From Malacoraja senta (Eukaryota): a DNA stretch of 64,000 nt. The stretch is from NCBI GenBank assembly GCA_038087875.1, contig CM075990.1, forward strand, positions 17,796,001 through 17,860,000, written 5' to 3'. The notes beneath the pieces were generated by a model. That model worked only from the letters and a program-made list of their open reading frames with translations, did not search any database and was not told where the DNA came from. The translations under genes and the position numbers were made by a program. Every line of letters begins with the position of its first letter. Positions within the stretch are counted from its first letter, which is position 1. Positions 14,829 through 60,189 of the stretch are shown in pieces.

Positions 14829-15860
14829 TATATACTGGCATGGAAATCTCCGGGAACACACACACACACACACAGACAGCCACAGGCAGACACCCTAACT
14901 CACTAATTTGGCAGCGTAGAGCCTTTAGTCAGCATTTGGAATGTCTCCAGATATTACTGTCAAACAGATAGTTTGGGAATATCTACCAGTTAAACATTCA
15001 GAAACGTAAAAGCTAATATAATTAGATTTAAACACTCAAAGACAATTAAACAGATTAAAGCTAACTCAATTAATTTAAAAGACACATCACCTGAAAGTTG
15101 CCTCTTAGCTATTCCTTCCACGTGAAATGAATGGATTCACTGAACCCAAGGCAGGTTGACTGAAGCCCAATGGAGTGCTGTCGGCATATCATCGGTGACC
15201 CCTTCTGAGGAAGCTTGGGACTTCACTGTTCACACATGCTTCCTGACAGAGGTAAATCCAGGATATCATCCTGAATTATATAGGTCTTGTAATAAAGGCC
15301 ATTTGACTAGTTTGTTTCCAATAGTTTTGCATCAATGACAAATTTAAAGTTAGTTAAGTTTAGTCATCATTCAGTTTTTAAACTGACCAGTAACCAATAA
15401 AAGGAATTGTTGGGAAGCAGTTAGTACCTTTGAATGCTACAAGCTATGCAACAGCTCTGAAACCTTTGAAGCTTCAGAGGATTATGCCCATGATTACCAA
15501 AGTGCTAGTCACATGGTCCTTGAAATTCCAATGCTTGTCCTTTATGGTTTTTGTGGCATTTCATAGTTTGCTCTTAGAACAGGAGAATTTCACAAGAGCA
15601 CAATAGATATTTAACAATATGTATCCAATATATTTTCCATGTACATCTTTTTTAACATGCAAATGTTCCATGATTTTCACAAATGGTCCCCCACTAAACA
15701 TTAGAACATTGACTTCCTGAAAATTAACGGTCAGAATACGAATGCACAAAGTTCATCATTTGTTGTGAACAGAGATGCATGACGACCAAAAACACAGTCG
15801 ATTCTCAAATGCTTTTTAGAATGCAAAAGACCAAAATGTAGGAAATCTAGAGAACTGCAA

Positions 15861-16174: not shown

Positions 16175-16934
16175 GCTTTAATTTCCAAAGATCAGCAGTG
16201 CAGCTTTGGCATTGTATAAATGAGAGAAGCAGTCTGATCCCCATTGCACGAAACAGTGTTCACCAAATGGTGCCTGGCTTGGGTTTAGCAAATCACCAGA
16301 CAGGAAGCAATGATTAGGACTGTGATTGTCAGAGCAGCAGGTGCAGAGTGCCCAGTCACTCCACATCACTCTGCAGAACAGCAGCTTATCCAAATATGGA
16401 GAAATTAAATACACTGATTACAGGCATGCTTTCTGTCTGCATACCGTTGTAAAATAGGTGCAGAATTGCAAGAGAAATTCATTTAACATTAATTTAGTTT
16501 ACATAACATGCACACAGAGGGTGTTATATGGAAAGAGCTTTCAGACAAAGTGGTTGACACAGGTACAATAACATTTAGACACTAGGGCAGGTTCATGGAA
16601 AATATAGGTTTAGAGGGGTATGGATCAAATATGGACAAATGGGACTAGCATTGAAACTTGGTCAGTAAGGATGGGTTGAGCTGACATGCTGTACAATTCT
16701 ACAATGATTTAATAGTAATGATAGTAATGATTTAATAGATTAGAGATTGAAAAGCTACAAAAAATCAGAGCCTGCTGGGAACAGATTTGCCAGGATGCTT
16801 CAGGAGCCCAAACCACAGGTGCTCCATTTTGATGAGGTAACCCACATTCCCCAATGACTCCAGCATGCCTCCTACTCACTTGTGGTCAATTTACTGTAAA
16901 AGCATACTTTATCATCACATTATGTAATGCTTAC

Positions 16935-17509
16935 CTATCCAGGAATATGTCTGGTAGGGGTGGATAGGTTTGCATGTCAGGGACACGTTCGTGAACTATT
17001 ACCATCACAATCGATGTAAACCCGAAGACTATAAACACATAAATAGAACTCAAAATAGTCTTCCAGTACTCGGGGTCAATTCTTCGTGTTTGATGTTTGT
17101 GGTATTTACCATTCTGAAATTGTTCACTATTCGCGTCTCCAACAGAACCACCACTGTCCCCAAAGTGTTCCACACCATTGCACTGACAGTCCTTGCTTTG
17201 TGAAGTGTTTGTGGCACATGAAACATTACCAGGACAATCGTCACTCGTGTAACCCATCTCTGTCAGGACATCTTTGTGCTGTTTTTGCAGTTTCCGAATA
17301 GATACCATTAACCTTTTAATATCACCCAACACTTTCAGTTCTAAAGGTGGGCAGCGTAAATCATATTCAGTCAAAGTTAACAGGGCGACACCATCCAGTC
17401 TGTGCTTATTACACAGGAGATCGACATAATCGCTGAAGCCTTCCTCCTTTAGCCACTTGGCTACATGTTTGCTGCTCCAGCGTCTGATATTAAACTGGCT
17501 TCCCATCAT
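16935..17509 (-). CDS. SAMD8: SAMD8 first coding exon (SAM domain and first transmembrane segment)
   Basis: [25 protein letters not shown]...LGDIKRL...[19 protein letters not shown]. Acceptor ccag| at 17516 and donor |gtaagc at 16934. The five exons total 1245 nt, giving 414 aa. Confidence 0.97.
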
Positions 17510-17828
17510 GGTTCAACTGGAAAAAAACAAACAAAAGGTCTTCATTGTGTGGAATTACACATCTGATTTAACAGAATTTAGTCGAGTGAAAAAATACTTC
17601 AAATAATATTACATATACTTAGATATTACACATGTGAAGGTTCCTCATTTACATAAATACTTCAAATTAAGACGTGGCTTGTTCCTTAGGGTCTCGGCCT
17701 TTCAAGGATAGAATGTTTTGTACTATAAAGTGAATTCACACTGGATACCACAACATTGTGGTAATCTCCCTTGCTTCATTGAAGGAAATACAATCCCACT
17801 GTCGGCTGCATCACAACAGACAGCTGAA

Positions 17829-26769: not shown

Positions 26770-27035
26770 TTTAGTTCAGAGATACAGCATGGAAACAGGC
26801 CATTCACCCCACCGACCATTGATCATCCGTTCACACTAGTTCTACGTTATCCCACTTTCTCATCCACTCCCCTTACATTAGGGGCAATTTACAATGGCCA
26901 ATTAACCTACAAACCCACATGTCTTTAGGATGTGGGAAGAAACCGAAGTACCCGGAGGAAATTGAAGTACCCAGAGGTCACAGGGAGAATGTGCAAACTT
27001 CACAGTCAGCACCCTAGGTCAAAATTGAACCTGTA
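26770..27035 (-). mobile_element. V-SINE (HE1-like), 5'-truncated
   Basis: Same family as 15861-16174. Confidence 0.8.
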
Positions 27036-28373
27036 AGCCTAAAAATTGTGTTAGGAAAACGTGTATAGTACCCAGCTACAAAGACTGAATATTAAGTTCA
27101 CCATTTTCACATTAACATCTTTTAGACAACATATATTGATTATGAATTTTAAATCTTTATTAGGGCTCAAACATTGTGATTATAACCCAAATGTTTACTC
27201 GCGTAAGCCGCACCAAGGACACTCAAAACATATTTTTGAAACTCTGCCTTCTCAAATGAAAGCAAAACCCAACACGTTTTGGTAAATAATTCACAAGATT
27301 ATGTTTTGAAAATCAATTCTGAAGGTTACACCTATCTAGTCCAAACCAAGTTGGTTACATACTAATCTGCATCAAGCAGTGTTTTGGATTTCAGAAACAC
27401 ATGATTACAAATTCACTGCTTAAACAACGTTCAAATTAACAAATACATTTTTACTGCCAGTAACAAATAAACAAAGCTTCAACTGTTGGCCTGAAATGAC
27501 TGAATATTAACTGTCTTGCTCTATGTCGAGGTGAAGTCAGCCCTGTGAGAGTTTCCAATGCTTTTGTTTGTATTCAAAACCTCCAGTGCCCTCAGTATTT
27601 TGCTTTTGATAAGCCCCAACAACATCATCGAATATATCCCTGTAGTATTCACACTGTACATAAATAAAACACTTGCTAGGAACAATAAATAGCTGTAGCT
27701 TTTGATCAAAGTGTTAAAAGCTGAGAAAGTCGACCTATTATCTTTGATGCTGCCTGATTTGCTGAGTTTTTCCAACATTTGTTGTTTCTGTGACAACTCC
27801 TAAAACCTGTCTGCAGATACAAGAGACTGCTGGGTCCCTGTACATATCTGCCCACTCCCTCTACAGATGCTGCCCGACCCGTTGAGTTCCCCAGCACTTT
27901 GTTATTTTCGGCTATAACGTGTGTGGCTGTCGGTATAGCATCGGTGAATAGGCTTCACTATTTAATTTACTTAAATTTTAAATCAGGTCAGTGTTCCAGT
28001 TCCAGGATCAATTTCTGACAAAGCTCTGTGAATGTCTTGAGCAATCACATTTGTGCCAAAGTCTCCGGCAATAAACACGAGTAACACGTCCACTCACACA
28101 GGGGAGTGACCACTCCACCACCCGGCCTGTCACCAGCCCTACTGACCCCCGCCTCCCACCCACCTCTCGTCCCCCCACCCACCAGCCACCCCATCCCCAC
28201 CTCCCGTCCCCCCACCCACCCTGGTCTCCCTCTCCCCTCATACCCCTGACTCCCCAGTCCTCGACCTCTCTTAGCCCCCATCCCCTCCCCTGATCCCTTC
28301 ATCCCCAGAACAACCTCCTCTCCCCAATCCTCCTCACCCCCTGCCCGCCCGCAGGCGGCCGGCTGTCACTTAC

Positions 28374-28460
28374 CCCACAGGCCTGTTCCGTGACCGTGAC
28401 CGGGCCCGTCAAGCGCTCACTGCGGACCGGCCGTCCGGACAAGCCCGGCGCCGCCTCGTC
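28374..28460 (-). other. SAMD8: Probable non-coding first exon of SAMD8 in a CpG island
   Basis: Consensus donor GGG|GTAAGTG at 28373-28367, CpG-dense, GC boxes just upstream and G-skewed sequence downstream. The 5' end is approximate. Confidence 0.75.
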
Positions 28461-28494
28461 ACATGAGCCCCGCCTCCGCCTCCCTCCGCCAGCA
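28445..28494 (-). promoter_or_regulatory. SAMD8 TATA-less promoter elements: E-box TCATGTGA and Sp/KLF GC boxes
   Basis: TCACATGA at 28459-28466, followed by CCCCGCCTCC and CCTCCGCC repeats. Confidence 0.6.
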
Positions 28495-28724
28495 CAGCGC
28501 CCCCTGCAGCACCGGAGACAGACACAGCGCCCCTGCAGCACCGGAGACCCAGCGCCCCCTGCTGCACCGGAGACACAGCGCCCCCTGCAGCGCCGGAGAC
28601 ACAGCGCCCCCTGCAGCACCGGAGACAGACACAGCGCCCCCTGCAGCACCGGAGACCCAGCGCCCCCTGCTGCACCGGAGACACAGCGCCCCCTGCAGCG
28701 CCGGAGACACAGCGCCCCCTGCAG
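28495..28724. repeat. 26-bp minisatellite, 9 units (CAGCGCCCCCTGCAGCACCGGAGACA), each resembling a CTCF core motif
   Basis: Units start at 28495 and run to 28710. A 4-unit higher-order block (107/108 bp) occurs twice, followed by a final partial unit. Confidence 0.95.
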
Positions 28725-29839
28725 AGAATTCCACAGATTCACAACTCTCTGCGTGAAAAAGTTCCTCTTCATCTCAGTCCTAAATGGCCGACCCCTTATT
28801 CTTAAACTGTGACCCTGGATCTGGACTCCCCCAACATCGGGAACATTTTTCCTGCATCTACCCTGTCTAATACTCTAAGAATTGTATATGTTTCTATAAG
28901 ATACATAGATACATAGAAAATAGGTGCAGGAGTAGACCATTCGGCCCTTCGAGCCTGCACCGCCATTCAATATCATGGCTGATCATCCAACTCAGTATCC
29001 CGTACCTGCCTTCTCTCCATACCCCCTGACCCCTTTAGCCACAAGGGCCACATCTAACTCCCTCTTAAATATAGCCAATGAACTGGCTATAAGATCCCCT
29101 CTCAATCTCCTAAATTCTAGCGAGTATAAGCCTAGTCTATCCAGTCTTTCTTCATATGAAAGTCCTGACATCCCAGGAATCAGTCTGGTGAACCTTCTCT
29201 GCACTCCCTCTATGGCTATAATGTCCTTCCTCAGATTTGGAGACCAAAACTGTACGCAATACTCCAGGTGTGGTCTCACCAAGACCCTGTACAACTGCAG
29301 TAGAACCTCCCTGCTCCTATACTCAAATCCTTTTGGTATGAAAGCTAACATACCATTCGCTTTCTTCACTGCCTGCTGCACCTGCATGCCTACTTTCAAT
29401 GACTGGTGTACCATGACACCCAGGTCTCGCTGCATCTCCCCTTTTCCTAATCGGCCACCATTTAGATAATAGTGTGCTTTCCTGTTTTTGCCACCAAAGT
29501 GGATAACCTCACATTTATCCACATTATACTGCATCTGCCAAACATTTGCCCACTCACCCAGCCTATCCAAGTCACCTTGCAGTCTCCTAGCATCCTCCTC
29601 ACAGCTAACACTGCCCCCCCAGCTTAGTGTCATCCGCAAACTTGGAGATGTTGCCTTCAATTCCCTCATCCAGATCATTAATATAAATTGTAAATAGCTG
29701 GGGTTCCAGCACTGAGCCTTGCGGTACCCCACTAGTCACTGCCTGCCATTGTGAAAAGGACCCGTTTACTCCTACTCTTTGCTTCCACAGCTGGTACCTG
29801 TCGTGGGCCGCCGTCCTTCTAAATTCCAGCGAATACAAG
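28722..29839 (-). mobile_element. Composite young CR1 LINE (nested 3' fragment, 5'-truncated with a complex junction)
   Basis: ORFs 28992..29732 and 29605..29856 give CR1 RT motifs ([28 protein letters not shown]). An internal (ATACATAG)n tail lies at 28901-28917. Confidence 0.92.
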
Positions 29840-30182
29840 GTTTGGGAATGGTACATTCTGGAATCTCAACCAAGTGTAAGGCAGCCGTGGTTCACCGCTG
29901 GCGCTCACGCCAAACACACTCCAGTACTTTGGTAAAGATATGATGCGTTCGTGAATGGACGTGACGTGTCGGTCATTCATCAATCTCAGAGGTGGCAAGT
30001 TGTTCAGCCCAGACCTGAACCACAGAGCCAGAATCTTTGTGCGGATTTGTTTTGAGATATCGGATACGGACCGGGCGGGGTTTTGTTTTGGGTCGCATCA
30101 GGCGAACACTGGCACCTGTCATCAGGCGAGACTGACAGTGAGCAGGCAGCTCGGAGCAGCGACGGTGCCCCGACTTCAGGCC

Positions 30183-30334
30183 ATGTCAACGGCAGTGTCC
30201 GGGCCCAGTGGCCACCCCCCGCTGCCCGGCGCCGGGAGCCCCACAGTAGACGAGCTGGAGCGGCTCCTGCGCGACAACACAGTGGCGCTGAGTCGGGTGG
30301 ACGAGGTGTGGCCCAGTCTGTACATTGGGGACAT
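30183..30334 (+). CDS. DUSP13A: DUSP13A-like (MDSP) atypical dual-specificity phosphatase, coding exon 1
   Basis: GCCATG start, MSTAVSG...ELERLL...SRVDEVWPSLYIGD, donor |gtgagt at phase 2. Lies head-to-head with SAMD8. Confidence 0.88.
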
Positions 30335-30812
30335 GTGAGTGAGTGAGTGCGTGTCCAGGGGCGGCGGCAGAATGACTGATCCCCGCCTCGGGACCGGCTC
30401 ACCGCCCACACTGACCGGGCACAACAGGATAGACCACTCGGCCCTTCAAACTCAGGCCACCTGCTCCAGGCAGACCCCCCGCGGGCCCCATCCCCCCTCT
30501 GCCTCCCCGTATATCTGTAAATATCCCGCCGGCTTCGCCCAGTCGCGCCGAGAAGTGACCTGTCGCCTGTGTTTCCATCGGGTCCCAGGTCCCCAACGTC
30601 GGACGTTTCAAGGCAGGGCCGTGGGTCTGTTTGGGAGGGGGCATGCGGACGGGACAGGCGGGAAAGCCCCTCCGGTGCCGCCCCGCCCCATGTTCGTAAC
30701 CGAAACGTCTCAGAATGTGGAAACTGTCTCTGACCACTGTCTCTGACCTTTGCTTAACCTCTGACCTTTCCGGGACCTTTGCCTTAACCTGTGACCTCTG
30801 CTTGGCCTCCAG

Positions 30813-31030
30813 GACGGCGGCCCACGACAGGTACCAGCTGTGGAAGCTGGGCATCACCCACGTACTGAACGCTGCCCACAAACAGCTGGCATCCAGCGGC
30901 TGCCAAGACTTCTACGGGATCACCATGGATTACCGCGGCATCGCCGCCCGCGACCTGCCCCACTTTGACATCTCCGCCTATTTCTATTCCGCAGCTGAAT
31001 ACATTCACCAGGCAGTTGATGTTCTTGGAG
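30813..31030 (+). CDS. DUSP13A: DUSP13A-like coding exon 2
   Basis: 218 nt, [23 protein letters not shown]...DLPHFDISAYFYSAAEYIHQ. Splice sites ccag| and |gtaaga. Confidence 0.93.
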
Positions 31031-31772
31031 GTAAGAAACCATCCCCGCGTGCCACACGCACACATTGTTAACATGCAAGCTCTCTCTGTGTAAAGACTCT
31101 GTGCAGTCCATAAGGGATAGGAGCGGAATTAGGCCATTCGGCCCATCAAGTCTACTGTGCCATCCAATTATGGCTGATCTATACCTCCCTCAACCCCATT
31201 CTCCTGCCTTCTCCCCATAACTTCTGATCCACTACATTGGTGAGTTGTTGCCGAGTATCGGCGGGTTCACGATTAGATTGACAAACGAACATTATGCAAT
31301 CATAGAACCACCTACAGCGCGGAAACAAACCCTTCGGCCCATTTTGTCTATGCTGACCAAATTGGCATTCTGGATTAGTTCCATTTGCCTGCATTTAGTC
31401 CATATCCCTCTGGAGTCGACACCCTTCCCGTCCATGCTTATGTCGGACTACACCCTATCACAGACACGGGGAGGGATGTATGGAAGGGATAGGGCAGTAA
31501 GATTACAGAGATAATGTTCGGGGTCCCTATCTAAAAGCTGTCCCTATCGTATCTGCCTCCACAATAAACTAAACTAAAGTAAACGAAACTAAACCACGAC
31601 TCGTGGCGGTGTGTTCCAGCCACTGTGTAAAATGTGGTTATTTCCTGAGTTCACACATTATGGAACAGATATCATTTACTGGGCATTTACTGTCGGCTGC
31701 CGAGAATTCTTCTGACCGTTTGAACACGGAGGGATGTTGGTTGGAGTCACTACGCGCTTTGCTTTGTCTCAG

Positions 31773-31972
31773 GGAAGGTCTTCGTCCATTGTGCTTTCGG
31801 ATATAGCCGGGCGGCCACTCTGGCGCTGGCTTATCTAATGATCCACCAACGCCTCTCGCTGTGGGAAGCCGTCAGCAAGGTGGCGAAACACAGACGCATC
31901 TACCCAAACCGAGGATTTCTGAAACAGTTGCGGATCTTGGACACAAAATTACAGCAAGAAAGGAAGGTTTGA
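31773..31972 (+). CDS. DUSP13A: DUSP13A-like coding exon 3 (catalytic loop)
   Basis: [30 protein letters not shown]...[11 protein letters not shown]...KV*, with HCx5R intact. Protein totals 189 aa. AATAAA at 32254-32259. Not in the ORF track. Confidence 0.93.
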
Positions 31973-32319
31973 TTTAGTCATCTCTTTGCGGCTCAGTAAA
32001 TGTTGAGTAATTCTTGTCTGCAGTATGACTACTTTTTAACGATAACTCATTGTGGTGAAATAACTGATTGTGAGCAGAGACGCGCGAGTATTTTAGTGAA
32101 CTTCACACTCATTCTGTTGGTAAACACGCACGGTCCCAAACACTACTGGCGCAAGATTCTCACTTTACCTGGAACTAGACCAAGGAGCCGTGTCATTGTT
32201 GAAGTGTTTCTGCAATTGTAAAGAGTTGTTATTACCTGCAGACAATTAGTTTTAATAAAAGATAATTTTGTCGACTCAGCTGCGACTTTGCTTCTGATAT
32301 CCTGGCTTCTGATATCCTG

Positions 32320-32560
32320 GCTTCATGTACACGGGCGAGACCAAGCGGAGACTCGGCGACCGTTTCACTGAACTTCCCAAGGTTGCTACCTTTTACCCCC
32401 CCACCCCCTTCCCATTCCCACACTGGCCTTTCCGTCCTGGCCCGCCTCCATTGGCCACAAGCAAACTGGAGGAACAGCAGTTTGCAACCCAAATGTATGA
32501 ATGTTGAATTCTCCGATTTTAGGCAACCGTTCACAACACCCCCTCTGCCTCTCCCCTCCA
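32320..32560 (+). mobile_element. Penelope-like element fragment (GIY-YIG endonuclease region)
   Basis: YTGETKRRLGDRFTE matches the Penelope YIGET...L..R..EH motif. Confidence 0.7.
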
Positions 32561-32796
32561 CATCTACCCCACGACGCCGCCACGACCCGCTTGTCCGTCA
32601 GCTTCCTCCTCATGTCCACGCTGAGCGTCGCTCTGAGCCCCCGGGATCACCCGGACTTCGCCCTCCCCGGTCTGAACACGGTCCGGGTCAGTTGTCAACA
32701 GATCAGCGAGCCGCAGCTGTCTGCAAACGTCAAACCCAACGGGCGCCAGTGATCGGCGGCGAGAAGCGGGCAGAAACACGGAGAAAGCGGCGGGAC

Positions 32797-32954
32797 ATGG
32801 CGGCGACGTCTCCGCCCCAAGATGATCCCGGTCCCTCCACCGCCGGTGACCCGGGAACTCCCTCCATTCTGGAGCTGGAGACGGCGCTGGAGAGCAGCCG
32901 GGCGCCGCTGAACCACGTCGATGAAGTTTGGCCCAATCTTTACATCGGAGACCT
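32797..32954 (+). CDS. Second DUSP13-family paralogue, coding exon 1
   Basis: GACATGG Kozak context, MAATSPP...TPSILELETAL...NHVDEVWPNLYIGD, donor |gtgagt at phase 2. Confidence 0.88.
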
Positions 32955-33671
32955 GTGAGTACAAATGTTGTTTCGGGCGACCACCCGGTCTCGCCGCTCA
33001 CTCCCGTCCCACACACGCATTGTCCGTTCACTTTAAGCTGCTGCTGGGCGCCGGAGGGCAGAATGGCCGCGCTTCGCCTGCAGCGTTGTTGGGCCGGAGC
33101 TGTTCGCCCCATCTGTTAGCAAGCAAGTCCACAGCTAACGCGGGAGTCCATCAAAGTTCAGGACCGGCGGGTTCCATAAGTGATAGGAGAAGAATTAGAC
33201 CATTCGACCCATCAAGTCTACTCCGCCATTCAATCATGGCTGATCTATCTTTCCCTTTCAACCCCAATCTCCCTGTGGCCCGTGACACCTGTACTAATCA
33301 ACAATCCAGGAGGAGGGAACCTTGGATAACAACAGAGGCTCAAATGTGGTCAAAAGGGAAAACAAACCGATATCTGCGAGATTGAAGAGAATGTGATCAG
33401 ACTGGGCCTTTGGGGAGGAAGGAGAGAGGGGTATTGTTGAGTAATATTTAGTCACACATACAACACTCAGCAGCATATCAATTCTACCCTAACCATGCTG
33501 CATCACCAACTTACAGCACATGTCGGGCTGCGATAACATGAATGGTGTTTCATTGTCCCCGCTGCCGGCGAGAGGCCTGACAATGACAACTGTTGTAACG
33601 AGGCGCGGGGACGGACCAGGCATGTGAAGGTGGGGCATTGATAATGGGACCTCACTGTGTTCCCGACACAG

Positions 33672-33889
33672 GCTGGTCGCTCACGACAAGAAGTGGCTGC
33701 GGAGATTGGGAATCACACACGTGTTGAACGCGGCGCACAACAAGAGTGGCAGCAAAGGCGACGCCATCTTCTACGGCAGGAGGTTCCGGTACCGCGGCAT
33801 CGAGGCGGACGACTGCCCGCTGTTTGACCTCAGCCGCTATTTCTACCCGGCAGCGGAACACATGGAGGAGACGCTGCGGGATCCAGACG
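33672..33889 (+). CDS. Second DUSP13-family paralogue, coding exon 2
   Basis: 218 nt, LVAHDKKWLRRLGITHVLNAAH...YRGIEADDCPLFDLSRYFYPAAEH. Splice sites acag| and |gtgagg. Confidence 0.92.
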
Positions 33890-34009
33890 GTGAGGCAGCT
33901 TCTGTTGTTCACCCTGAGTGGCCGGAGCCGCTGGCAGAGTGACCAGCGGGGTGTCCGCGACCCTCAACCCTGTAGTTCGCTGCTAGCGGGGTCCGACCCG
34001 GAAAGGGGG

Positions 34010-34460
34010 CGTAGAACAGCACAGGAACAGGCCCTTCGGCCCACAGTGTCTGTGCCGATCATGATGCCAAGGAAACATCTAATGTACCTCCATATGCCCC
34101 ATTGCCTCTATGTGCATAAATGCCACCATGTATCTGCCGCGGCAGCACGGTCCAGGTACTCACCACCCTCTGTGTAAAAATACATTTGCACTGCACATCC
34201 CCTTAACCCCCTCCCCCCTCCCCCCTCCCCCCTCGTCTGATAACTATGCCCTCTAGGGTTACATATTTCTACCCTATCTACCGTATCTATGACTGCCATA
34301 ATTTGCAATACTTCTAACAAGTCTCCCCTCAACCCCCGACATTCCAGAGAAAACCCAAGTTTGTTCAACCTCTCCCTGTAGCTCAAACCTTGTAATCCGG
34401 CATCATTCCGGCAAACCTCCTCCAAAGCTTCCCCGACCACAACTGTACACAGTGCACCCA
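34010..34460 (-). mobile_element. CR1 LINE 3' fragment
   Basis: ORF 34108..34461 contains GLSYRERL..LG.SLE.R.LRGDL. Confidence 0.78.
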
Positions 34461-34708
34461 TGTCTATTGCGCCAGAGACCGCGCTGTCCGCCGCAGCCGC
34501 TCCGCAACTGGTTTAGGACCCGCCTGCCCAGTGGACAGGCGCTGGAAACAGGAACCCGGCAAAATCCGAGACAGCCCGTTAGAAATGCGACCAAGACTGG
34601 GGTCTCTAGTCGGCAGGCTCACCAGTAGCACAACAGCCGCCTGTAAGTTTAGAAAGCAAACTTTATTATTCAACTCAGTTCAGTCTGTCTGTAACTAAAC
34701 AATTCTCC

Positions 34709-34711
<3 letters not shown>

Positions 34712-34754
<43 letters not shown>

Positions 34755-34780
34755 GTATCTTTGTGTGTGTGTGTGTGTGC
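34712..34780. repeat. (TG)n / (TGTA)n microsatellite
   Basis: Directly visible, about 35 nt upstream of the acceptor at 34813. Confidence 0.95.
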
Positions 34781-34813
34781 GTATCTCTGCGTATCTCTCT
34801 GTGTGTCCCTCAG

Positions 34814-35094
34814 CGAGGCTGTTGGTCCACTGCATTCTGGGGATGAGCCGCTCGGCCGCTCTAGTGTTGGCCTACCTGATGATCTGTGGACAACGCTCTC
34901 TGCTCCACGCCATTCACAGGGTCATTCTCTACAGACCCATCTCACCCAACCGCGGCTTCCTGCAACAGTTACGCAACTTGGACATGGAGTTAAGCGCAAA
35001 GAAGCCGCAGCGTTTGCGGGAGGAGTTACATGATCCTGTGACGGTCGAGGGGTCGCTGTCCGTGGCTGCAGCGACCAAGGAGGCGACTGACTGA
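34814..35094 (+). CDS. Second DUSP13-family paralogue, coding exon 3 (catalytic loop)
   Basis: [24 protein letters not shown]...[11 protein letters not shown]...ATD*. Protein totals 218 aa. AATAAA at 35627-35632. Confidence 0.92.
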
Positions 35095-35264
35095 CTGACT
35101 GCCCGCAGTGACCCTGCGGTGACGGCCTCGTCGTGCATTTAACACCTGCGGGTTCACGATGCCACCTCTAGAATATCAGCAGTCACGTCCCCACCTCCAC
35201 CCCCCGGCCATTTATCTTCGCCCAAAGACCTTGCATTAAGCTGCAACCTCTGACAGTTGTAGAG

Positions 35265-35480
35265 TTATGGAGTGATACAGCACGGAAACAGGCCCTTCGG
35301 CCCATTGAGGCTGTGTCGACCGCCAATCGCCCATTTAATCGAATCCACTAATCTCCACGTTTTATTATTTTTGCCCACGCTCCCCCTCCCCCGGTCAGTT
35401 CACCTCCAACCCGCGTGTTTTGGGGATGTGCCAGGAAACCGCAGTCACGCAGAGAACTTGCAAACTCCACACCGACAGTG
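35265..35480 (-). mobile_element. Degenerate V-SINE fragment
   Basis: GATACAGCACGGAAACAGGCCCTTCGGCCC tail and GCAAACTCCAC motif. Confidence 0.65.
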
Positions 35481-36022
35481 AGCGGGTTCAGTCCTAACGA
35501 CAGCCGGGCGGACACGTCGGCCGTGAGGCTGCTGCCGGCAGTGGGGCAGCGACGGCGGGTTGTGTCGGGGTCCCGAGTGGACAGAGCACAATCGGTAAAT
35601 CTGAAACCTGTTGCTCGCGGCAGCGAAATAAACCAACTCGTATATCGACAGCTTCAATGTCATTCATTTAAACCGCCTTGTCTTCCGCCTGAAACAAAAT
35701 AATAAGTTTAATGTTTCTATCCAAGTGCGTGGAGTTTTACAAAGTGCGAGAGGAGGGCTCGCTGGGGGGGGGGGGGGGGGCCGCACTCCGCGCGTCTATG
35801 AATCAAACCACTGACTCTCATATTGACCCCGAGCATGGACAGGACAAGTTTGGGGAGGGAGGGGGTGGAGAGGAGAGAGGGTTGGATCGCGGATCATGAG
35901 CTGAAAGTCACCGTAAGATTTCAGTAAATCCGCCGCAGATATCAACTGTGATTCACTGCCAACGCGGATGGTCGGGCGGGTGTCGGCGGCGCTGATCTTT
36001 CGCTCTCCGTGACGCTCCCGAG

Positions 36023-36206
36023 GGCAGGTTTTCGTTCACTGTACGATGGGGATCAGCGGGGCAGCCATCCTGGTCCTCGCCTTCCTGATCAGTGAAGGGG
36101 TGACCCTGCTGGAGGCCATGACACAGGAACATCTGTCCGAGCCGCGGTTTCCTGGGCGCAGCTCCAGCAACTCGATCGAGCGCTGGCGAGGGAGGGGCGG
36201 CGATGA
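36023..36206 (+). pseudogene. Disabled DUSP catalytic exon, DUSP13B(TMDP)-like
   Basis: Reads GQVFVHCTMGISGAAILVLAFLISEGVTLLEAM, then ICPSRGFL, then QLQQLDRALARE...TGA, in three different frames (shifts near 36130 and 36158). The catalytic Arg is replaced by Gly, and no upstream exons are recognisable. Confidence 0.85.
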
Positions 36207-36569
36207 CCGAGCCTCTGTCACTTGGCTGGGCCGAGGCCACAAGGACATTCCACGGGCGGGGAATGAGGGGACAATGTCGGGGATGTTGTGACATTTCCCC
36301 AGAATGACCACGGGTTAGTGATGTGTTCACCCGCATTAAACCTTCATCTGTCAGTAATATTTCACCATCTGGTAAAGTTTAGTTGCTGCTAATTGGCCCA
36401 TTCCAACGATGTTTGGCTGAAAATGTGAAGTCAATGTCCGGTGCTGTTTCTTCATTGCGCTGCTGCCGGAGCTGCCGGGCCCGGGCGAGGGAGTCGATAT
36501 TCCCGTGGCTGATGGACACAGGAGCCGGACGCTGAGCGACAGCCTGACTCCACTGCGGACGAGTTGCTT

Positions 36570-36780
36570 ACTTTAGTTTAGGGATACAGTGCGGAAATTG
36601 TCCCCAGTGAGTAGGGATCATTTACACCAAGCCAATTAACTTGGAGTGTGGGAGGAAACCGAAGATCTCGGAATAAACCCACGCACGTCGGGGAGAACAT
36701 GCAAACTCCGTACAGACAGCACCCGCAGTCAGGAACCAGGGTCTCCGGTGCTGCATTCGCTGTTCGGCAGCAACTCTACC
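36570..36780 (-). mobile_element. V-SINE (HE1-like), interrupted near its 5' end
   Basis: GGGAGAACATGCAAACTCCGTACAGACAGCACCC family motif. Confidence 0.78.
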
Positions 36781-36787
36781 CCCCCCC

Positions 36788-37962
36788 AGGGCCGGATTTA
36801 CGTATAAGCTAGACAAGCTTAACCGTAGGGCCTTGAGATCTAGGGGGGCCTACTCACCTCGCCGCCCCACCGATCATCCGCCTCCTACTCTTTGCCCGCT
36901 GACCCTCGACACTCCACCGCCCTCCATCAGCCCACAGCCGTCACCTTACCTGAATCCTGGACTCAGCACCGGGCCTGAAGCTTCCACGCTGCAGATTCCT
37001 ACTCCCCTGGGTTTGACTGCGCTGGGTCCTAGTGCCAGTCCCCCACCACCCTGGTAACCTCAGTGGTTGTTCCACTGGGTCTTCCCCATTCCCCTCAAAC
37101 CATGTGACCCCAGCTCTTCCACACTAACACTACAGTCCTAATACCCCCCTACCCCCTGACCACCCACCATCTCCCCACCAGTCATCGCCTCAGCCTCAGT
37201 CTACTCACCTACCTTCCTCTGGACCCAACCCCCATCCCTGCCGTATGTTCACCATCCCCCCTGACCTCCCCCACTCTGATACCGAAAGGTCTGTCCTCAG
37301 CAGAGACCTTACCTTTGTCCCCCTCTGTCCCCACCTCGATGAGTTCCGCGCCCGCTGCGATTTGGAGCTCTTCTTCCGTCACCTCCGCCTCACAGCGTTC
37401 TTCCATGGGAAGTTCTCGCCCCCATTGATGATCCCTTTTCCCGCCTCCAACGGACCCCTCCTCTTGGACCCCCCTCATGGACACTGGTACAATTAAATTT
37501 GGGGGTCACCATCCAACGTCGGAACGGGAGAACATTCTCAGCGGCGTGGACTTCCGAATCGGCCACTTCCTACCGGAGACCGCGGCTCCCGAAGTCCACA
37601 GGCTGCGCTGGGTGGAGATTCACGTTGGCGGCCCTCGGCAAAGGGATCCCAGGGCTCCGCGATATTAAAATGAGCCCAAGGCTGGGAGCTCCGCAACCCA
37701 CAGCTCCATGATGTTGAAGCAGCAGGCCCAAGACTCCAGAGCTTCAAAAGGCGATCTATGTAAGGCATCACTCGCTCCGCAGTGAATCCAATATGGATTT
37801 TAAAACCAACTGTTTAATGACAACATACAGTAGGATCTAAAAGTGTCACACTGTCACTGTCGGGTAGTCATGGACCTCTAGTCGTGGGGGTGGGGGATTG
37901 GGAGGGGGGAGGCCTCACAAGTGAAATAGCTTAGGGCCTCTCTTCATCTAAATCCGTTCCCT
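36788..37962. mobile_element. Non-autonomous TIR DNA transposon (hAT- or Harbinger-like) containing a Penelope fragment (~37230-37480)
   Basis: 14-bp terminal inverted repeats AGGGGCCGGATTTA / TAAATCCGTTCCCT with 2 mismatches, C-runs on both flanks and subterminal TAGGGCCT repeats. Internal ORF 37245..37496 (FTIPPDLP..TERSVLSR.LTFVP...LELFFR.LRL) resembles the Penelope N-terminus. Confidence 0.65.
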
Positions 37963-38149
37963 CCCCCCCCTGCACCCCGTTACTGTTCACCTCCCCCAGG
38001 GAGAGGCAGGAGCTTCTGCGGGAACCCGTCCGGCCGCTGCTTTACAACCACACATGCGTTTCAATTCATTCGCAGTTTAGTAGCAGAACAACTCGCTATA
38101 ACTTCGAGAAACAAGTCGCAGCCCAGTCAGCGCCGGGACTGGCGGCCCC

Positions 38150-38270
38150 CCCATCCTTAAACCCCACCCCCCATCCCCCCCCCCCCCCCCCGCCCAAGTG
38201 TGGCTTCAGATTCCGGCTATAAATAGTCCTTGCTCCGATGCCCGACAAAGGGCAGAATAAGCAGCTGCTG
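38150..38270 (+). promoter_or_regulatory. DUSP29: DUSP29 promoter: C-rich Sp/KLF tract, overlapping MEF2/TATA element and E-box
   Basis: CTATAAATAG at 38217-38226 is a perfect CTA(A/T)4TAG and contains TATAAA. CAGCTG at 38262-38267. Donor GTGAGT at 38351 and acceptor ttccag| at 38502 define a 5' UTR intron. Confidence 0.7.
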
Positions 38271-38560
38271 GCCCTGAACATACGGAGAGCGCCGGGCTCA
38301 GCGAACGGGAGGGCGGCGGCAGACGTGACCGGGAGCGGCGCCGGTTCCCCGTGAGTAAGCGACCATCTCCCGCGTATTGACGAGAAAACTCCGTGACCGC
38401 CCTTCACACGCGCCTTGCCGTGGAGTGTGGTGAAAACCGGACCCACTTAGGGCTCTGCGAGGTTGGGTTTGTGTGTAGATGTTTGCGTTTTCTCTATTCC
38501 AGACACCCAGGCCGATTACATTTGGAGAACCGCCCGGGTTGGGTTGCTTGCTCTGACGAG

Positions 38561-38724
38561 ATGCTCTCCGGCAGGACTCCAAACCCCTACAGGCCAGTGA
38601 CTGTGGACCCCGACGATGATTACACGACACCAGGAGCCTTCGAACTGGAGCGACTCTTCTGGAAAGGTTCTGTAAAATTCTCTCACGTCGACGAAGTCTG
38701 GCCTGGCATTTCCATCGGAGACGA
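38561..38724 (+). CDS. DUSP29: DUSP29 (DUPD1) coding exon 1
   Basis: [10 protein letters not shown]...[18 protein letters not shown]...[25 protein letters not shown] is characteristic of DUPD1. Donor |gtacgt. Confidence 0.93.
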
Positions 38725-38759
38725 GTACGTTCCACACAACTGCAGTTCATGTTCATCAG

Positions 38760-40370
38760 ACATTGGGGTAGAGTTAGACCATTCGGCCCATCGAGTCTAC
38801 TCCATTCTGCATGGCTGATCTATCGTTCCGTCTCAACCCCATTCTCCTGCCTTCTAACATTACTCAAAATTACTCAACATTACTCAAAAATCTGTCAATC
38901 TCCATTTTAAACATACCCAATGACTTGGCCTCCACTGCCGTCGGTGGTAATGAATTCCACAGATTCGCCACCCTTTGATTAAAGAAAATCTTCCTCATCA
39001 CCTTTCTATATGTACATCTTTATCTGCAGGTACATTTTTATTCTGAGGCTATGGCCTCTGGTCCTAGACTCTCCCATTAGGGGAAACATCCTCTCCACAT
39101 CCACTCTATCCAGGCCTTTCACTATTCAGTAAGTTTTAATGAGGTCTCTCCTCATCCTGTTAATCTCTATCAAGTACAGACCCAGAACACTCATGGTACA
39201 TTAACTCAATCATCCCCAGGATCATTCTTGTAAACCTCCTCTGGACCCTCTCCAATGCCAGCACATCCTTCCTCATATATGGGGCCTAAAACTGCTCACA
39301 ATACTCCAAATGCAGTCTGACCAGTGTTTTATAAAGCCTCAGAATTACAACCCTGTTTTTATATTCTCGTTCTCTCAAAATAAACGTTAACATTGCATTT
39401 GCCTACCTCAATACCAATTCAACTTCAAATTTAATTTTTGGGGAATCCTGCACCAGCAGTCCCAACCCCTGCACCTCTGATTCCTGAATCATCTCCTCAT
39501 TTAAAAAGTAGACTATGCCTTTATTCCTACTACCAAAATTCTTGACTCTACACCTTGCTACGCTGTATTCCATCTGCCACGTTTTTGCCCACTCTCCCAA
39601 ACGGCCTCTACACTACCTGCCTCTCCATCTATCTTTGTATCATCCGCAAACCTGGCAGCAAAGCCTTCAATCCCCAAGTCCGAATCATTAATATACAAAG
39701 TGAAGTAGTGGTCCCAGCACCGACCGTTGCGGAATTCCGTTAGTCACTGGCAGTCAACCAGAAAAAGCCCTTAATTTCCACTCGTTGCCTTCTGCCATCC
39801 AGCTCAACCTTCAATCCATGCTAGTATCTTCCCTCGTCTCTCGTCTTCTTTAGCAGCCTCATTTGTGGCACCTAATCAAAAGCATTCTGAAAATCCAGGT
39901 AAACAACATCCACTAAGTCTCCTCCATCTATCTATATCCATCCTCAAAGGATTCCAACAGGTTTGTCAGTCAAGATCTCCCCTTCACAAAACCATGCTGA
40001 TTTTGACCTATTTTATCATTTGCATCTAAATACTCAGAAACCACATCCTTAATAATGGATTTTAAAATCTCACCAACCATTGAAGTCAGGTGAACCGGTG
40101 TGTAGTTCCCCCTTCAATCCCCCTTTTGCTTCAATCCCTTCTTGAACAGTGGAGTAATATTTGCAATTTTACAATCCTCTGGAACTACTCCTGACTTGTG
40201 ATTCTTGAAAAATCAACTCTAATGCCTCTACAATCTCTTAAAGCCACCTCTTTCACATCCCCCGTGTGCAGTCCATCCTGTCCAGGTGATTAATCCACCT
40301 TCAGAAGCACCTTCTCCTTAGTAATCGCCACTCCACTAATTTTCACCCTCTGGATCTCTTGAATTCAGGC
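38760..40370 (-). mobile_element. CR1 LINE, 5'-truncated and decayed
   Basis: CR1 3' tail and hairpin at ~38760-38850, plus RT remnants (ORF 39403..39600 GEWAKTWQMEY). Confidence 0.85.
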
Positions 40371-40931
40371 AGTGGGATTTACTAAAGCTATGTGAAATCT
40401 AGAAAACAATATAAAACCATCATCACCAACTGAATTACTGAAAATCGTTTAACTTCTCACACTTGGGCAGCCTGATCATGAGGAATTCAGCACAAAATCA
40501 AGTTCTTCAGCCCAACTTGTCCATGACCCCATAATTCCAACGGACCAATCCCATCTAAACTAGTCCCATCAGCCTGTGTTTGGCCCACATCCTTCCAGAC
40601 CTTTCCTCTCCATGTTATTTCTAAGTGTCCTTGAATTGTTGTTACTGTACCTGCCTCAACTAGTTCCTCTGGCAGCTCATTCCATGCACCCACTACCCTC
40701 TGTGTGAAAAAGTTACCCCTCTGGTTCCTATTAAATTTGTTCCCAGTAATTATTGATTCTTCTACCCTGGTGAAGACAGTGCATTTACTCTCTGTGCCCC
40801 TCGTGATTTTATATACCTTTTGAAAGGTAACCTCTCATGTTCCAGGAGTATTCCCTCTGAAATTTGTTTTGCTTTAAATGTCATCATGTTTTCCACCCTG
40901 CCTTGAGCCTTGATTATATATTTTGTTGTAG

Positions 40932-41152
40932 AGTGATTGCATTGGACCGGTATACTGTCGAAAAGATGGGTTTTACGCATATCCTAAATGCAGCTCATGG
41001 TCGGTGGAACGTGGGCACTGGGGTGGAATACTACAAGGACATGCCTGTTGATTACTATGGTGTGGAGGCCGCAGACCTGCCAAGTTTTAATTTGGGCCAA
41101 TTCTTCTATCCTGCTGCTCAGTACATTGACAGAGCACTGAGCACTCCTGGCT
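40932..41152 (+). CDS. DUSP29: DUSP29 coding exon 2
   Basis: 221 nt, [36 protein letters not shown]...[23 protein letters not shown]. Splice sites gtag| and |gtaagt. Confidence 0.95.
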
Positions 41153-41924
41153 GTAAGTGATACCGGACATCCTCGGCCACAGTTTGTTTTTTGAGCTCCA
41201 TACCAGGTGATGCTGGCAGAGAAGTAATGAACATATTACAACACAATGCATTGTACTCGAAACACGCTCCGGCACTCAGAAAGAATTATACTTCACATCA
41301 CCTTTCTGGGATTATTCCTTCGGAATCTTAAAACAATGTAATAATACTTGGGCAATATAATTAATGATGTGCATTATTACTAAACCTAGCGCAATAATAT
41401 AAAACCCCAAGTATGTTGGAGAAACAAAATCTGTTAAATATCGAGAAACATCTTTCCATCTATCATACTTCCCAACTCCCGAAAGGAAAATGGAACATAT
41501 ACTGAAATGATGGGAGGGGATATGTGGATGGAAGCGGTGGGAAGATTTAGCCAAGGGATTAAAATGATGAATGCTTGTAGTTGGCACGGAGGAATCCTGT
41601 ACTTCTGATGCAGATCAGTGAGAGCAGGGAGAGCCGCTCTCTCTTGTGGGACCACCTGAAATATGCCAATGGTTCTAGATTTAGTTGTACCTATTGAAGC
41701 GGAAGTGGAAGAATGGTAACATTTGTGTGCCTATGGGGCAGGGACAAGGGGGGGGGGAGGGGGTTGGTCAACAAGATAGGTCTTTGAAAGGGTGCCACCG
41801 GGACAACAGGCCAGAAATTATGTTGAATAATCTCATATTTAGGATTGTTTTACAAGCTAGAAATACCTGGTTGAGCAGTTTTCCTGAACATAATTTTAAA
41901 CTCTGCCTAATTGACTTTAACTAA

Positions 41925-42850
41925 ACCTTTGACAAGATCCTGCATGTCGGTGAGCCTGGAAGGTTTAGATCACAAGGGATCTGGGGTGAGCTAGCCATGT
42001 GGACACATAATTTGCTTTGGTGGAAGGAGGCAGAGGGTGATGGTACTGGGTTGTTATTAGAGGCCTGTGACCAGTGGTGTACTGCAGGGGCCGGTGCTGG
42101 CTCCATCTAGTTTCTCATCTTATTTGGATGACAATGTTGTTAACATGGTTAGTAAGATTGTAGATGACACCAAAATTGGTGGTGTAGTGGACGGTGAAGA
42201 AGGGCATCTACATTTGCAACAGGTTCTTGCTGAAAAGTGGAAGTGAGGAATGGCAAGTAGAATTTAACTCTAACAAAGTGTTGTATTTTAGTAAGTTAAA
42301 CCAGGGCAAGACATACACAGTAAATGGTAGGGCTGTGGCTAAAGAGACCTAGGACTACAAGTACCTACTTCCCTGAAAGTGGCAACACAGGTGGACAGAT
42401 GGTGAAGAAGACATTTGGCACATTTGCCTTAATTAGTCAGAGAATTGAGGACAGAAGTTGGGATGTTATGTTACAGCTGTAAAAGTCGTTGGTGAGACCA
42501 CGCGGAATGCAGTCCTGGTTGCCCAGCTACAGAATGGATGTCATTAAGCTGGAAAAACAGCAGAAAAGATTCACCAGGATGCTACTGGGCCTAGTAGGTT
42601 TCATTCATAAGGAGAGGCTGGATCGGCTGTAACCCCCACCTCCCCAGCGTATAGGAGGCTGAGGGGTGCATTTATAGAGGTATATAAAATAATGAGGTGC
42701 ATGATCACAATCTTCTCCCAGGGTAGGAAATCATCCCAGCGAAGGAAAGTCTAAAGTAGAGGACAAGACTAGAGATTTAAAAGGGCTCTGAGCGGGAAGT
42801 TGGCAGAAGAGTGTTGGGCCCAAGAGCCTGTATCACTCTGTGACTCTCAA
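41925..42850 (+). mobile_element. Decayed CR1 LINE
   Basis: RT remnants (GTGACCAGTGGTGT..., GATGACACCAAAATTGGTGG, GAGGCTGAGGGGTG). Confidence 0.78.
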
Positions 42851-43864
42851 ACTCAATCCATCTTGTTCGTTATGCATGTTAAACCAGTAACTGCCTTGGT
42901 CTCCAGCCTAACGGCTATATTGTCATGGTCAAGTTCATCGTCATTCAATGTCTGATATTAATCGGCAGATTTATCTGATGTACATTGCAGTATCTGATGT
43001 ATGGATCAGATTCAGTTATGCAACCTATTAATAGCCATCGGTGGGTTCAGTGGAAAATAATACCACCTTAGAGCCGAGTTATGTTGGCACATCAGTGCAA
43101 ACGATGGCATTTATATTGAGTCAGATAGAGTAGAACCTGATTATTAATAGCAGCAGTAAACTGCCGAGTGCATCACTGACATTTCAACAGCCTTTGATTT
43201 CCTGTTACAAGAGCAGCTGTCCCACGGATGATGAAACGTCAAGCAGTAATATCTTAAACATTTCCCTGGATCCTATTCCGCTCTGATTCACCGTGATGTT
43301 CACTTTCGTGTCGTGTTTTGGCCCAGATTCCACTCTAATCTCAACTTTAATTGGGTGTTCATGTTTTAATAAATTCACCATATGGTTGTTATCCGGCACA
43401 TTTTATGAATTATTGCTGCCTGTTTATATCAGTCAAGCTCTTTGCTATCCTGCATCTTAGACAATAGTTTGTCCAAAATTTCACTGAAAGCTGTTTTTGC
43501 CAAGAAGTAATTTTGTACAATTTCCCTATTGAAACAAAATCAAATTGCACAAATGCTGAAAATCTGAATTATAAACTGAAACTGTTGGCAGCAGCTGGTA
43601 GATTGTGGAGACAGTTACTGCTTCCAATCCACAATCTTTCATCGTAACCAGTTCAGTATTTCTGCTTCAAACCAACCTGTGCTCCGCCTGACGGGCAGGT
43701 CTGCCGCTACACGTTGCACCAGCTGTCTGATACAGTGGAGCTCTGGGGCAGTGGGCTCATGCACATGGCTGCACTGTGAGACTACACCAGCAGTTGCACG
43801 CTGATTGTTCAGAGATACCGATTTGATCATCTTGCAGCTTAAATTGCAGGCTTCCACATTCACA

Positions 43865-44350: not shown

Positions 44351-44478
44351 TTCAAAGTTATTTGTGGTTTAAATGCTTTTTAACCGGTGTACAATTCCTA
44401 GCTCAGATTCTGCAGAAATCCTTTCCTTGTTTGACACAATTGGTCCTCTGAATAAAAGCTGTTCTTTTTCCTGTGCAG

Positions 44479-59590: not shown

Positions 59591-60189
59591 ATGTAAAAGC
59601 AACAAAGTACACCAGAGGGCACTATTGCATTGATATTAAGAGGATAAAATGCATTACATTGATTCTTCCAATATTTTTAGTAAATGAAATATAGAAAACA
59701 TTCAAATAAAAATCAGAGCAAGTATGTTCAGATGAATGGTTTCCCGTGTTTATTCAATAATAATACCTAATTTGTCACACTTTAGTTAATATCAGCACCA
59801 TTTTCATCGCAATGATTTAATTTAACTCCCAACTTCATTCCTTACCACTTGCTACATGTTATCATTACGAGTAATAGCTGTCATTAACAAATATTTCCTG
59901 AAAAAGCACATTTATTCTTCATTCTAAACAGATGCTTGTACAAAGCTAAAATGGTCTGGAAATTTGACACTAAAGTTTGAGTTTACACGTTTCAGTGCCT
60001 TTTTGGAGAGTTTATTCTTTTGTTACAAAAAGTTTCGGAAGCGGCATTGATGTGTCACAGTACTGTTGTTATATTGATAATGGAGTCATAATCATACAGC
60101 AATGGGAACAGGCCCTTCAGTCTTGCCCATCCTATCTACACGTCCCATATCCCTTTAAACCCATCCTATCCATGTACCAGCCCAAAAGT

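What the first reader, a model, noticed from the sequence alone, without database searches (positions are those of the whole stretch)
28495..28724. Tandem array of nine co-oriented CTCF-like motifs between the SAMD8 promoter and the DUSP cluster
Seen: a 26-bp minisatellite whose minus strand reads GC(T/A)GCAGGGGGCGCTG in nearly every unit (unit 2 lacks one G, unit 9 is partial). It has a duplicated 4-unit higher-order block, starts immediately upstream of the SAMD8 GC boxes and ends flush against a CR1. Known: the CTCF core consensus is CCASYAGRKGGCRS, which full units match with only 1-2 mismatches, and homotypic same-orientation CTCF clusters can form strong loop anchors or insulators. Inference: a repeat-amplified, possibly copy-number-variable insulator separates the housekeeping SAMD8 CpG promoter from the divergent, tissue-restricted DUSP genes and shields it from the adjacent young LINE. 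CpGs inside the motif could make it methylation-sensitive. This is the best candidate for an undescribed system in the window.
Basis: partly seen in the sequence, partly recalled or inferred. Interest (0 to 1): 0.78.

Follow-up and report, generated by a model that had tools for sequence, protein, structure and literature searches.

The report
CTCF-motif minisatellite beside SAMD8 promoter
A short repeat right beside the start of a housekeeping gene in a shark- or ray-like fish carries nine same-direction binding motifs for the genome-folding protein CTCF, is also present in a related species and may have grown from a scrap of a jumping gene, which makes it a likely but untested chromatin boundary of a kind already known from mice.

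Summary
The array is real: 28493-28724, 26-bp period, a 108-bp block duplicated at 99%. With a recalled CTCF matrix 8 of 9 units score 13.3-17.4 bits, all on the minus strand; 77 of 20,000 shuffled units reach the common unit's score.

Read contigs of the same species support at least two blocks and give unit 2 its fifth C, so it is not an assembly expansion. Two of three relatives laid keep the first motif; one, 4.5% diverged, also has tandem units at about 12 times flank depth.

New here: the unit matches the head of the window's common SINE-like repeat (17 bases exact; 4 of 20,000 shuffles) apart from the C-run that completes the motif.

Best reading: a SINE-seeded, amplified CTCF cluster that stops cohesin arriving from the SAMD8 side. 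Binding is untested and the spacing is tight. 'Shield against a young LINE' is not supported: the abutting LINE piece is old. Closest known: mouse DXPas34. The scan noted a similar array before on other DNA (XPA, e1-7791257).

The parts
28493..28724 (-). Minisatellite, nine units of 25-30 bp, each with a CTCF-like 19-mer on the minus strand (19-mers start at 28495, 28525, 28550, 28576, 28602, 28632, 28658, 28684, 28710)
28493..28708 (.). Higher-order duplication: a four-unit 108-bp block present twice, identical once unit 2 has five C
   Evidence: read-contig break points agree with two or more blocks
28340..28492 (-). Presumed SAMD8 promoter and non-coding first exon: 75% GC, CpG o/e 0.99, splice-donor-like site at 28372-28373, GC-box-like words at 28451-28481, E-box-like word at 28459. 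No RNA evidence
   Evidence: only CpG island called between 1 and 29800 is 28001-28900
16931..17512 (-). First coding exon of SAMD8 (sphingomyelin synthase-related protein 1)
   Evidence: E 1.4e-83 to PDB 8ijr; SAM domain
28721..28902 (-). Old LINE remnant abutting the array (CR1 name recalled, not tool-tested); a short further piece probably at 29817-29840
   Evidence: 81% to the copy at 67-249; alignment of the short piece
28903..29780 (-). Young 5'-truncated LINE nested in the old remnant, lacking about 190 bp that the copy at 1-672 has
   Evidence: 100% over 49 nt and 97.9% over 432 nt to the copy at 1-672; open frame 28992-29735
30183..31068 (+). First two coding exons of a DUSP13A-like gene, divergent from SAMD8, ATG 1.46 kb from the array
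   Evidence: E 1.1e-25 to PDB 5xjv
36700..36800 (-). SINE-like copy with a 9-nt insertion whose head shares 17 exact bases (36739-36755) plus an adjacent 6-base block with the array unit; differs at the C-run
59606..59624 (+). The window's only other strong CTCF-like site (17.3 bits), facing away from the array; the DUSP genes lie between the two

Best explanation
A promoter-proximal cluster of CTCF sites built by tandem amplification. Origin (inferred, about 55%): a piece of SINE head lay upstream of the SAMD8 promoter, gained a run of five C that completed a CTCF motif, and was multiplied by slippage; it has kept turning over since, including the recent 108-bp duplication. Function (inferred): the array sits at the edge of an unmethylated CpG island and CTCF occupies some of the nine sites, probably a few at a time because cores are only 7-11 bp apart. 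All motifs face the SAMD8 gene body, so they stop cohesin arriving from that side. The SAMD8 promoter then sits at the inner edge of a domain on its 3' side and the DUSP promoter 1.4 kb away lies outside it. Shown: array, motif scores, orientation, presence in relatives, SINE likeness. Inferred: binding, methylation state, barrier effect, order of events.
For: Motif match beyond chance for the unit: 77 of 20,000 shuffles. Eight of the nine best sites in 64 kb. First motif present at the same place in 2 of 3 relatives laid, the third not covered; tandem contigs in 1 of 3. Variable columns of the seven 26-bp-aligned units are 14, 17 and 26, none in the C-run or core CpG. The only other strong site faces the opposite way, the divergent pattern described at skate insulation minima (PMC10115646, passages). 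In human K562 cells, deleting an element near ZNF503 raised both SAMD8 and ZNF503 (PMC11310080, passages), which fits SAMD8 sharing a domain on that side; the human gene order beyond SAMD8 is recalled. SINE likeness: 17-nt exact match, reached by 4 of 20,000 shuffles; 5 of 6 SINE copies tested score above most shuffles (0, 11, 28, 60, 80 of 1,500; the sixth, lacking that part, 1,343) while the copies themselves score only -2.4 to 8.2 bits as CTCF sites.
Against: No ChIP, ATAC, methylation or Hi-C data were seen. The matrix is recalled, and scores drop to 5.3-11.1 bits on a CpG-island background. All units miss the first consensus C and six also the A. No upstream-module word lies in the recalled register (21-25 bp instead of about 15). 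Doubly bound 2xCTS examples have 30-40-bp linkers (PMC4562119), and the modelled dosage effect used 180-bp spacing, about 15-bp flanks and strong sites only (PMC11828424), so nine motifs need not give nine times the strength. Three variable columns are too few to show selection. The tandem contigs of organism C are not bridged to the flank by 31 letters, and organism B shows no small array contigs (74% of that run read). No other SINE part (A box, B box, body) lies near the array. A metagenome and a viral scan found no further SINE copy with the insertion.
Confidence: 0.5

Rival explanations
1. A neutral, repeat-derived minisatellite at the edge of a CpG island. The CTCF match is incidental, or CTCF binds with no effect; the array persists because elasmobranch DNA changes slowly.
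For: About 23% of human mini/satellites derive from transposons (PMC3389668, abstract). The unit's likeness to a SINE (4 of 20,000) is statistically stronger than its CTCF match (77 of 20,000). Unit make-up differs between organisms A and C, and even between the assembly and run X2 (a 75-nt contig where 98 nt was predicted). Only a minority of annotated CTCF sites are predicted to affect folding (PMC11828424).
Against: The one part that differs from the SINE copy is the part that makes the motif. The position is directly upstream of the promoter. The first motif is kept in both relatives that cover it. A similar array was noted upstream of XPA in another genome (e1-7791257, unchecked).
Confidence: 0.28
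2. A 2xCTS-type promoter element. CTCF binds, but its job is local: it phases nucleosomes, keeps the CpG-island edge open and unmethylated next to LINE DNA and tunes SAMD8 (or DUSP13A-like) transcription, without insulating.
For: Closely spaced CTCF motifs are enriched at active promoters, single sites at intergenic places (PMC4562119, passages). DXPas34 acts on Tsix expression and binds several factors (PMC10885031, passages). CpG o/e falls from 0.64 in the array to 0.24-0.44 in the LINE pieces. The two promoters are under 2 kb apart.
Against: Strict co-orientation and the divergent partner at 59606 suit a directional barrier. The two roles are not exclusive.
Confidence: 0.15
3. A REST/NRSF site array: successive units join a left-half-like and a right-half-like RE1 word.
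For: Units 1 and 5 give a split RE1-like match with an 8-bp spacer and 3 mismatches, the only 2 such hits in the window (consensus recalled).
Against: The conserved GG of the right half is missing; the other units give no hit at that threshold; SAMD8 is not known to me as a neuron-restricted gene (recalled).
Confidence: 0.03
4. An assembly expansion of a single site.
For: GC-rich tandem DNA is often mis-assembled; one base of unit 2 disagrees with read contigs, and one contig length is not reproduced.
Against: A single block predicts one unbroken contig. X2's flank contig instead ends at 28522 and the next pieces start at 28493 (57 nt) and 28520, as two or more blocks predict. A second species has tandem contigs. 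X2 may come from the study behind the assembly, so it is an independent method, not surely an independent animal.
Confidence: 0.02

Closest known systems
DXPas34 minisatellite near the mouse Tsix promoter (PMC3149622 and PMC10885031, passages)
   Same: CpG-rich minisatellite of about 30-bp monomers with a CTCF site per monomer, close to a promoter, varying between related species, possibly grown from a mobile element.
   Different: DXPas34 has proven CTCF binding and a role in X inactivation. This array is shorter in period (26 bp) and extent (232 bp), lies directly upstream of a housekeeping promoter, and has no binding data.
SINE B2-derived CTCF sites of rodents (PMC5880236, passages)
   Same: A small change in a SINE sequence makes or strengthens a CTCF motif, which is then multiplied.
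   Different: B2 sites spread by retrotransposition to thousands of loci. Here the spread is local and tandem; none of 6 SINE copies tested in the window is a strong CTCF site (best 8.2 bits).
Clustered CTCF sites (2xCTS) at promoters (PMC4562119, passages)
   Same: Several same-strand motifs within one ChIP peak at a CpG-rich promoter.
   Different: Nine motifs with 7-11-bp linkers instead of two with 30-40-bp linkers; BORIS arose in amniotes (PMC5973138, search listing only), so only CTCF itself could bind.
DXZ4 and ICCE CTCF-bound macrosatellites (PMC6125249, passages)
   Same: Tandem repetition multiplies CTCF motifs that serve as loop anchors.
   Different: Their units are 3-5 kb, leaving each site its own flanks and nucleosomes; they are specific to the inactive X.

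Membership tests
CTCF-site minisatellite (DXPas34-like) | Tandem array of short monomers | tested here: met
CTCF-site minisatellite (DXPas34-like) | A CTCF motif in each monomer | tested here: met
   8 of 9 as assembled, 9 of 9 with the fifth C seen in reads; matrix recalled
CTCF-site minisatellite (DXPas34-like) | CpG-rich and next to a promoter | tested here: met
   CpG island 28001-28900; the promoter is inferred from sequence, no RNA seen
CTCF-site minisatellite (DXPas34-like) | CTCF bound in vivo | not testable with these tools
   none of the 24 runs listed has a library description on record
CTCF insulator / loop anchor | Orientation consistent with a boundary | tested here: inconclusive
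   divergent to the strong site at 59606; no sequence beyond the window, no genome held
CTCF insulator / loop anchor | Cohesin retention, Hi-C boundary or enhancer blocking | not testable with these tools
   no contact or reporter data
CTCF insulator / loop anchor | Site conserved across species | tested here: inconclusive
   first motif kept in 2 of 3 relatives laid (2.6% and 4.5% diverged), too close to show constraint
Transposon-derived tandem repeat | Unit similar to a transposable element | tested here: met
   17 nt exact plus 6 nt; 4 of 20,000 shuffles
Transposon-derived tandem repeat | Rest of the parent element flanks the array | tested here: not met
   7 SINE copies against 27800-30200 gave only 10-12-nt chance-level hits outside the array
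tRNA-derived SINE (V-SINE HE1 of sharks and rays, listed in PMC3747384) as the donor | A-box and B-box-like words in the head; dispersed copies | tested here: inconclusive
   B-box-like word in 5 of 7 copies, A-box-like word found loosely in 7 of 7 at up to 2 mismatches; copies 67-84% alike; no Rfam tRNA hit; no repeat library to name the family
RE1/NRSE | Two half-sites with intact GG at canonical or permitted spacing | tested here: not met
   GG missing; only 2 of 9 units match at 3 mismatches (consensus recalled)

The most novel reading that the evidence does not exclude
Cartilaginous fishes repeatedly build directional CTCF boundaries at housekeeping promoters by turning the head of their abundant SINE into a CTCF motif and amplifying it as a minisatellite, so that unit number tunes boundary strength between individuals and species. 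This array and the one noted upstream of XPA in a chimaera-like fish would be the first two members.
Probability: 0.12. Interest if true: 0.72.

Novelty: new member of a known kind. Interest (0 to 1): 0.45.

Why it matters
If bound, this is a natural allelic series for an open question: how the number and very close spacing of CTCF sites set barrier strength. Published tests that I saw used about 180-bp spacing. It would also show a transposon-to-CTCF-site-to-tandem-array route outside mammals, in a lineage where loop extrusion has so far been inferred from motifs in ATAC peaks (PMC10115646, passages). If unbound it is an ordinary SINE-derived minisatellite.

Tried and rejected
No genome is held for this window, so no genome-wide count of such arrays or of the SINE variant. 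No RNA holder was listed, so the start site of SAMD8 is untested. Organism F (X16) has no orthologous cover beyond 28246: uninformative. Only 3 of the 8 relatives listed were laid, and only units 1-3 were in the laid stretch, so the right junction and the LINE's presence in relatives are untested. Hairpin or cruciform role: folding z-scores 0.68 and -0.33. G-quadruplex: best 25-nt G4Hunter value 1.16 in the array against 2.72 in the C-rich tract at 28110-28340. Rfam: 1 hit at E 0.2 elsewhere, none here. Unit pattern in metagenome contigs: 6 single hits, none tandem or SINE-like on reading; viral contigs 0. My note that organism C's 56-nt contig is a pure self-loop is only partly borne out: a pure 26-mer tandem reproduces its placement (2 substitutions, 1 gap) but my graph simulation splits the loop into 52 + 34 nt. 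One search's five-C model added the wrong base and was redone. Pfam named neither the KAT6B-like exon nor the LINE frame; both names are recalled. PMC8282625 and the CTCF-evolution preprint 10.64898/2026.10.19.759930 (passages) did not bear on tandem arrays. Own-scan look-ups by place, sequence and genome were blank.

Full report
THE ARRAY. Tandem Repeats Finder reports 28493-28724 with period 26 (8.7 copies, 86% matches) and period 108 (2.2 copies, 99%). Splitting at the motif gives units of 30, 25, 26, 26, 30, 26, 26, 26 bp and a partial ninth. Among seven units aligned at 26 columns only columns 14, 17 and 26 vary; units 1 and 5 carry a 4-bp insertion in the spacer.

THE MOTIF. I scored the window with MA0139.1 counts recalled from memory, not from a tool. 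Eight of nine units score 13.3-17.4 bits on the minus strand (p 7e-7 to 8e-6); unit 2 as assembled fails. Of 23 hits above 8 bits in 64 kb, only these eight and a plus-strand site at 59606 (17.3) exceed 13 bits. The skate genome paper used a cut-off of 8 with this matrix (PMC10115646, passages). On a 70% GC background the units score 5.3-11.1 bits, so strength depends on the background. Because the copies are one event, the fair test is on the unit: 77 of 20,000 cyclic dinucleotide shuffles, 36 of 20,000 base shuffles and 4 of 3,913 real GC-rich 26-mers put in tandem reach 14.36 bits. That is unlikely for one minisatellite but not extreme given 29 TRF rows in the window and many motifs a reader might spot.

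SETTING. SAMD8 runs on the minus strand (exon 16931-17512, E 1.4e-83 to PDB 8ijr). The only CpG island called left of 29800 is 28001-28900, with a donor-like site at 28372-28373 and GC-box-like words at 28451-28481. I take this as the SAMD8 promoter by inference; no RNA was available. A DUSP13A-like gene starts on the plus strand at 30183, a DUPD1-like exon lies at 44373-44720, and a KAT6B-like exon at 50417-52846 (name recalled; Pfam blank).

IS IT REAL IN READS? No genome is held. Of 24 runs listed, two of organism A hold 92% of the words of 27000-28724 and eight other organisms hold 5-23%. I laid 27900-28575 (flank plus units 1-3) on one run each of A, B, C and F (contigs only). In A (X2) the flank contig has 0 differences and ends at 28522; a 57-nt contig covers 28493-28548 with one more C after 28529, and a 75-nt contig starts at 28520. 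A de Bruijn simulation of the region with five C in unit 2 and two or more blocks predicts the break at 28522, the 57-nt piece and the start at 28520; the assembly as written predicts 41 and 56 nt, and a single block predicts no break. It predicts 98 nt, not 75, for the third piece, so X2's allele is not identical to the assembly. The 57-nt contig has 1.6 times flank depth (43.9 against 26.8), nearer two blocks than three or five, though depth is a rough guide. The array is therefore not an assembly expansion, and probably has nine intact motifs.

RELATIVES. Organism B (15 differences in 578 letters) runs through unit 1 to 28520 with no difference listed in the motif, and its contig ends 7 letters later; no small array contigs appeared (74% of the run read), so one or several units cannot be told. 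Organism C (24 in 538, 4.5%) keeps unit 1, lacks 37 bp of the promoter (28439-28475), and its flank contig ends 2 letters after 28521. C also has an 80-nt contig over three units (depth 14.7) and a 56-nt contig across unit junctions at depth 99 against 8.0 for the flank. A pure 26-bp tandem reproduces that placement. This points to about a dozen more uniform units in C, with the caveat that these pieces are not bridged to the flank. Organism F is not covered there.

ORIGIN. A search of the unit against the rest of the window found a 17-nt exact match at 36739-36755. It lies in the head of a dispersed repeat with at least nine copies, 67-84% alike, with box-like words of a tRNA-derived SINE. 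The alignment shows that most copies read like the two ends of the unit, and that the copy at 36700-36800 has a 9-nt insertion that makes it match the whole unit except that two A stand where the unit has five C. Four of 20,000 shuffled units reach 17 exact bases anywhere in the window; five of six copies tested align better than most shuffles (0, 11, 28, 60, 80 of 1,500), and none is a strong CTCF site itself. Against this, the full match rests on one copy, the unit is internally repetitive, and no other SINE part flanks the array. I put the SINE origin at about 55%. HE1 is the SINE family listed for sharks and rays (PMC3747384, table passage); I could not test that name.

THE LINE. The piece abutting the array (28721-28902) is 81% like the copy at 67-249 and has lost its 3' end; a young element, 98-100% like the copy at 1-672, is nested from 28903. 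An array shared with a species 4.5% away is probably older than an insertion 2% from its nearest copy. So shielding from the young LINE is an unlikely reason for the array.

HOW IT MOST LIKELY WORKS. By the convergent-site rule (established knowledge; orientation bias reported for skate) minus-strand motifs stop cohesin arriving from lower coordinates, the SAMD8 side. The promoter would sit just inside a domain edge and the DUSP genes between divergent sites at 28.5 and 59.6 kb. Housekeeping genes often lie in such boundaries (PMC11344162, passages), and a human element near ZNF503 affects SAMD8 too (PMC11310080, passages). Cores are only 7-11 bp apart, closer than the 30-40-bp linkers of doubly footprinted sites (PMC4562119) and the 180-bp spacing of dosage models (PMC11828424). 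The gain is probably higher occupancy and redundancy, not nine bound proteins. Every functional step is inferred. I give this reading 0.5, a neutral minisatellite 0.28, a local promoter role 0.15, REST 0.03 and artefact 0.02.

WHAT IS KNOWN. SINE-born CTCF sites (PMC5880236) and transposon-born tandem repeats (PMC3389668, abstract) are also known. I saw no report of this locus or of such arrays in cartilaginous fish in five searches: CTCF + tandem repeat + minisatellite + binding sites + insulator, CTCF + skate + cartilaginous + Hi-C (10), SAMD8 + CTCF (18), VNTR + CTCF motif + copy number + repeat unit (19), CTCF + ChIP-seq + shark + elasmobranch (22). I read listings for these and passages only of the papers named; no supplements were opened, the skate ATAC and boundary tables could bear on this locus, and the library lacks most subscription papers.

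VERDICT. A real, cross-species CTCF-motif minisatellite at a housekeeping promoter, with a plausible SINE seed and untested function: a new member of a known kind, interest 0.45.

Noticed in passing
window 29781-29817: Exact inverted 37-nt copy of 30811-30847, the acceptor edge and start of DUSP exon 2, at the 5' junction of the young LINE; looks like a templated insertion made during retrotransposition.
   Followed up: partly
window 28895-28903 and 29087-29095: The young LINE lacks about 190 bp found in the copy at 1-672, and resumes at the same 9-base word at which the old remnant ends; may be a template jump guided by likeness to the target LINE, or a target-site duplication.
   Followed up: partly
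window 28439-28475: Organism C lacks these 37 bp of the presumed SAMD8 promoter, including an E-box-like word and part of a GC box; organism B has a 5-bp insertion at the same edge.
   Followed up: no
window 59606-59624: Single strong CTCF-like site (17.3 bits, plus strand), divergent from the array.
   Followed up: partly
window 28110-28340: C-rich tract just inside SAMD8 intron 1 with high G-quadruplex potential on the minus strand (G4Hunter mean 1.72, best 2.72).
   Followed up: no
window 13215-14830 and 54501-56101: Two Tc1/mariner-like elements with 212-222-bp inverted ends (96% and 93%) and transposase-like frames (family name recalled).
   Followed up: no
window 29801-38800: Unusually long CpG-rich stretch (six called islands) over the DUSP genes, for genes thought to be tissue-restricted.
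   Followed up: no
window 30183-44720: At least three DUSP13/DUPD1-like first coding exons on the plus strand (near 30183, 32860 and 38600).
   Followed up: no
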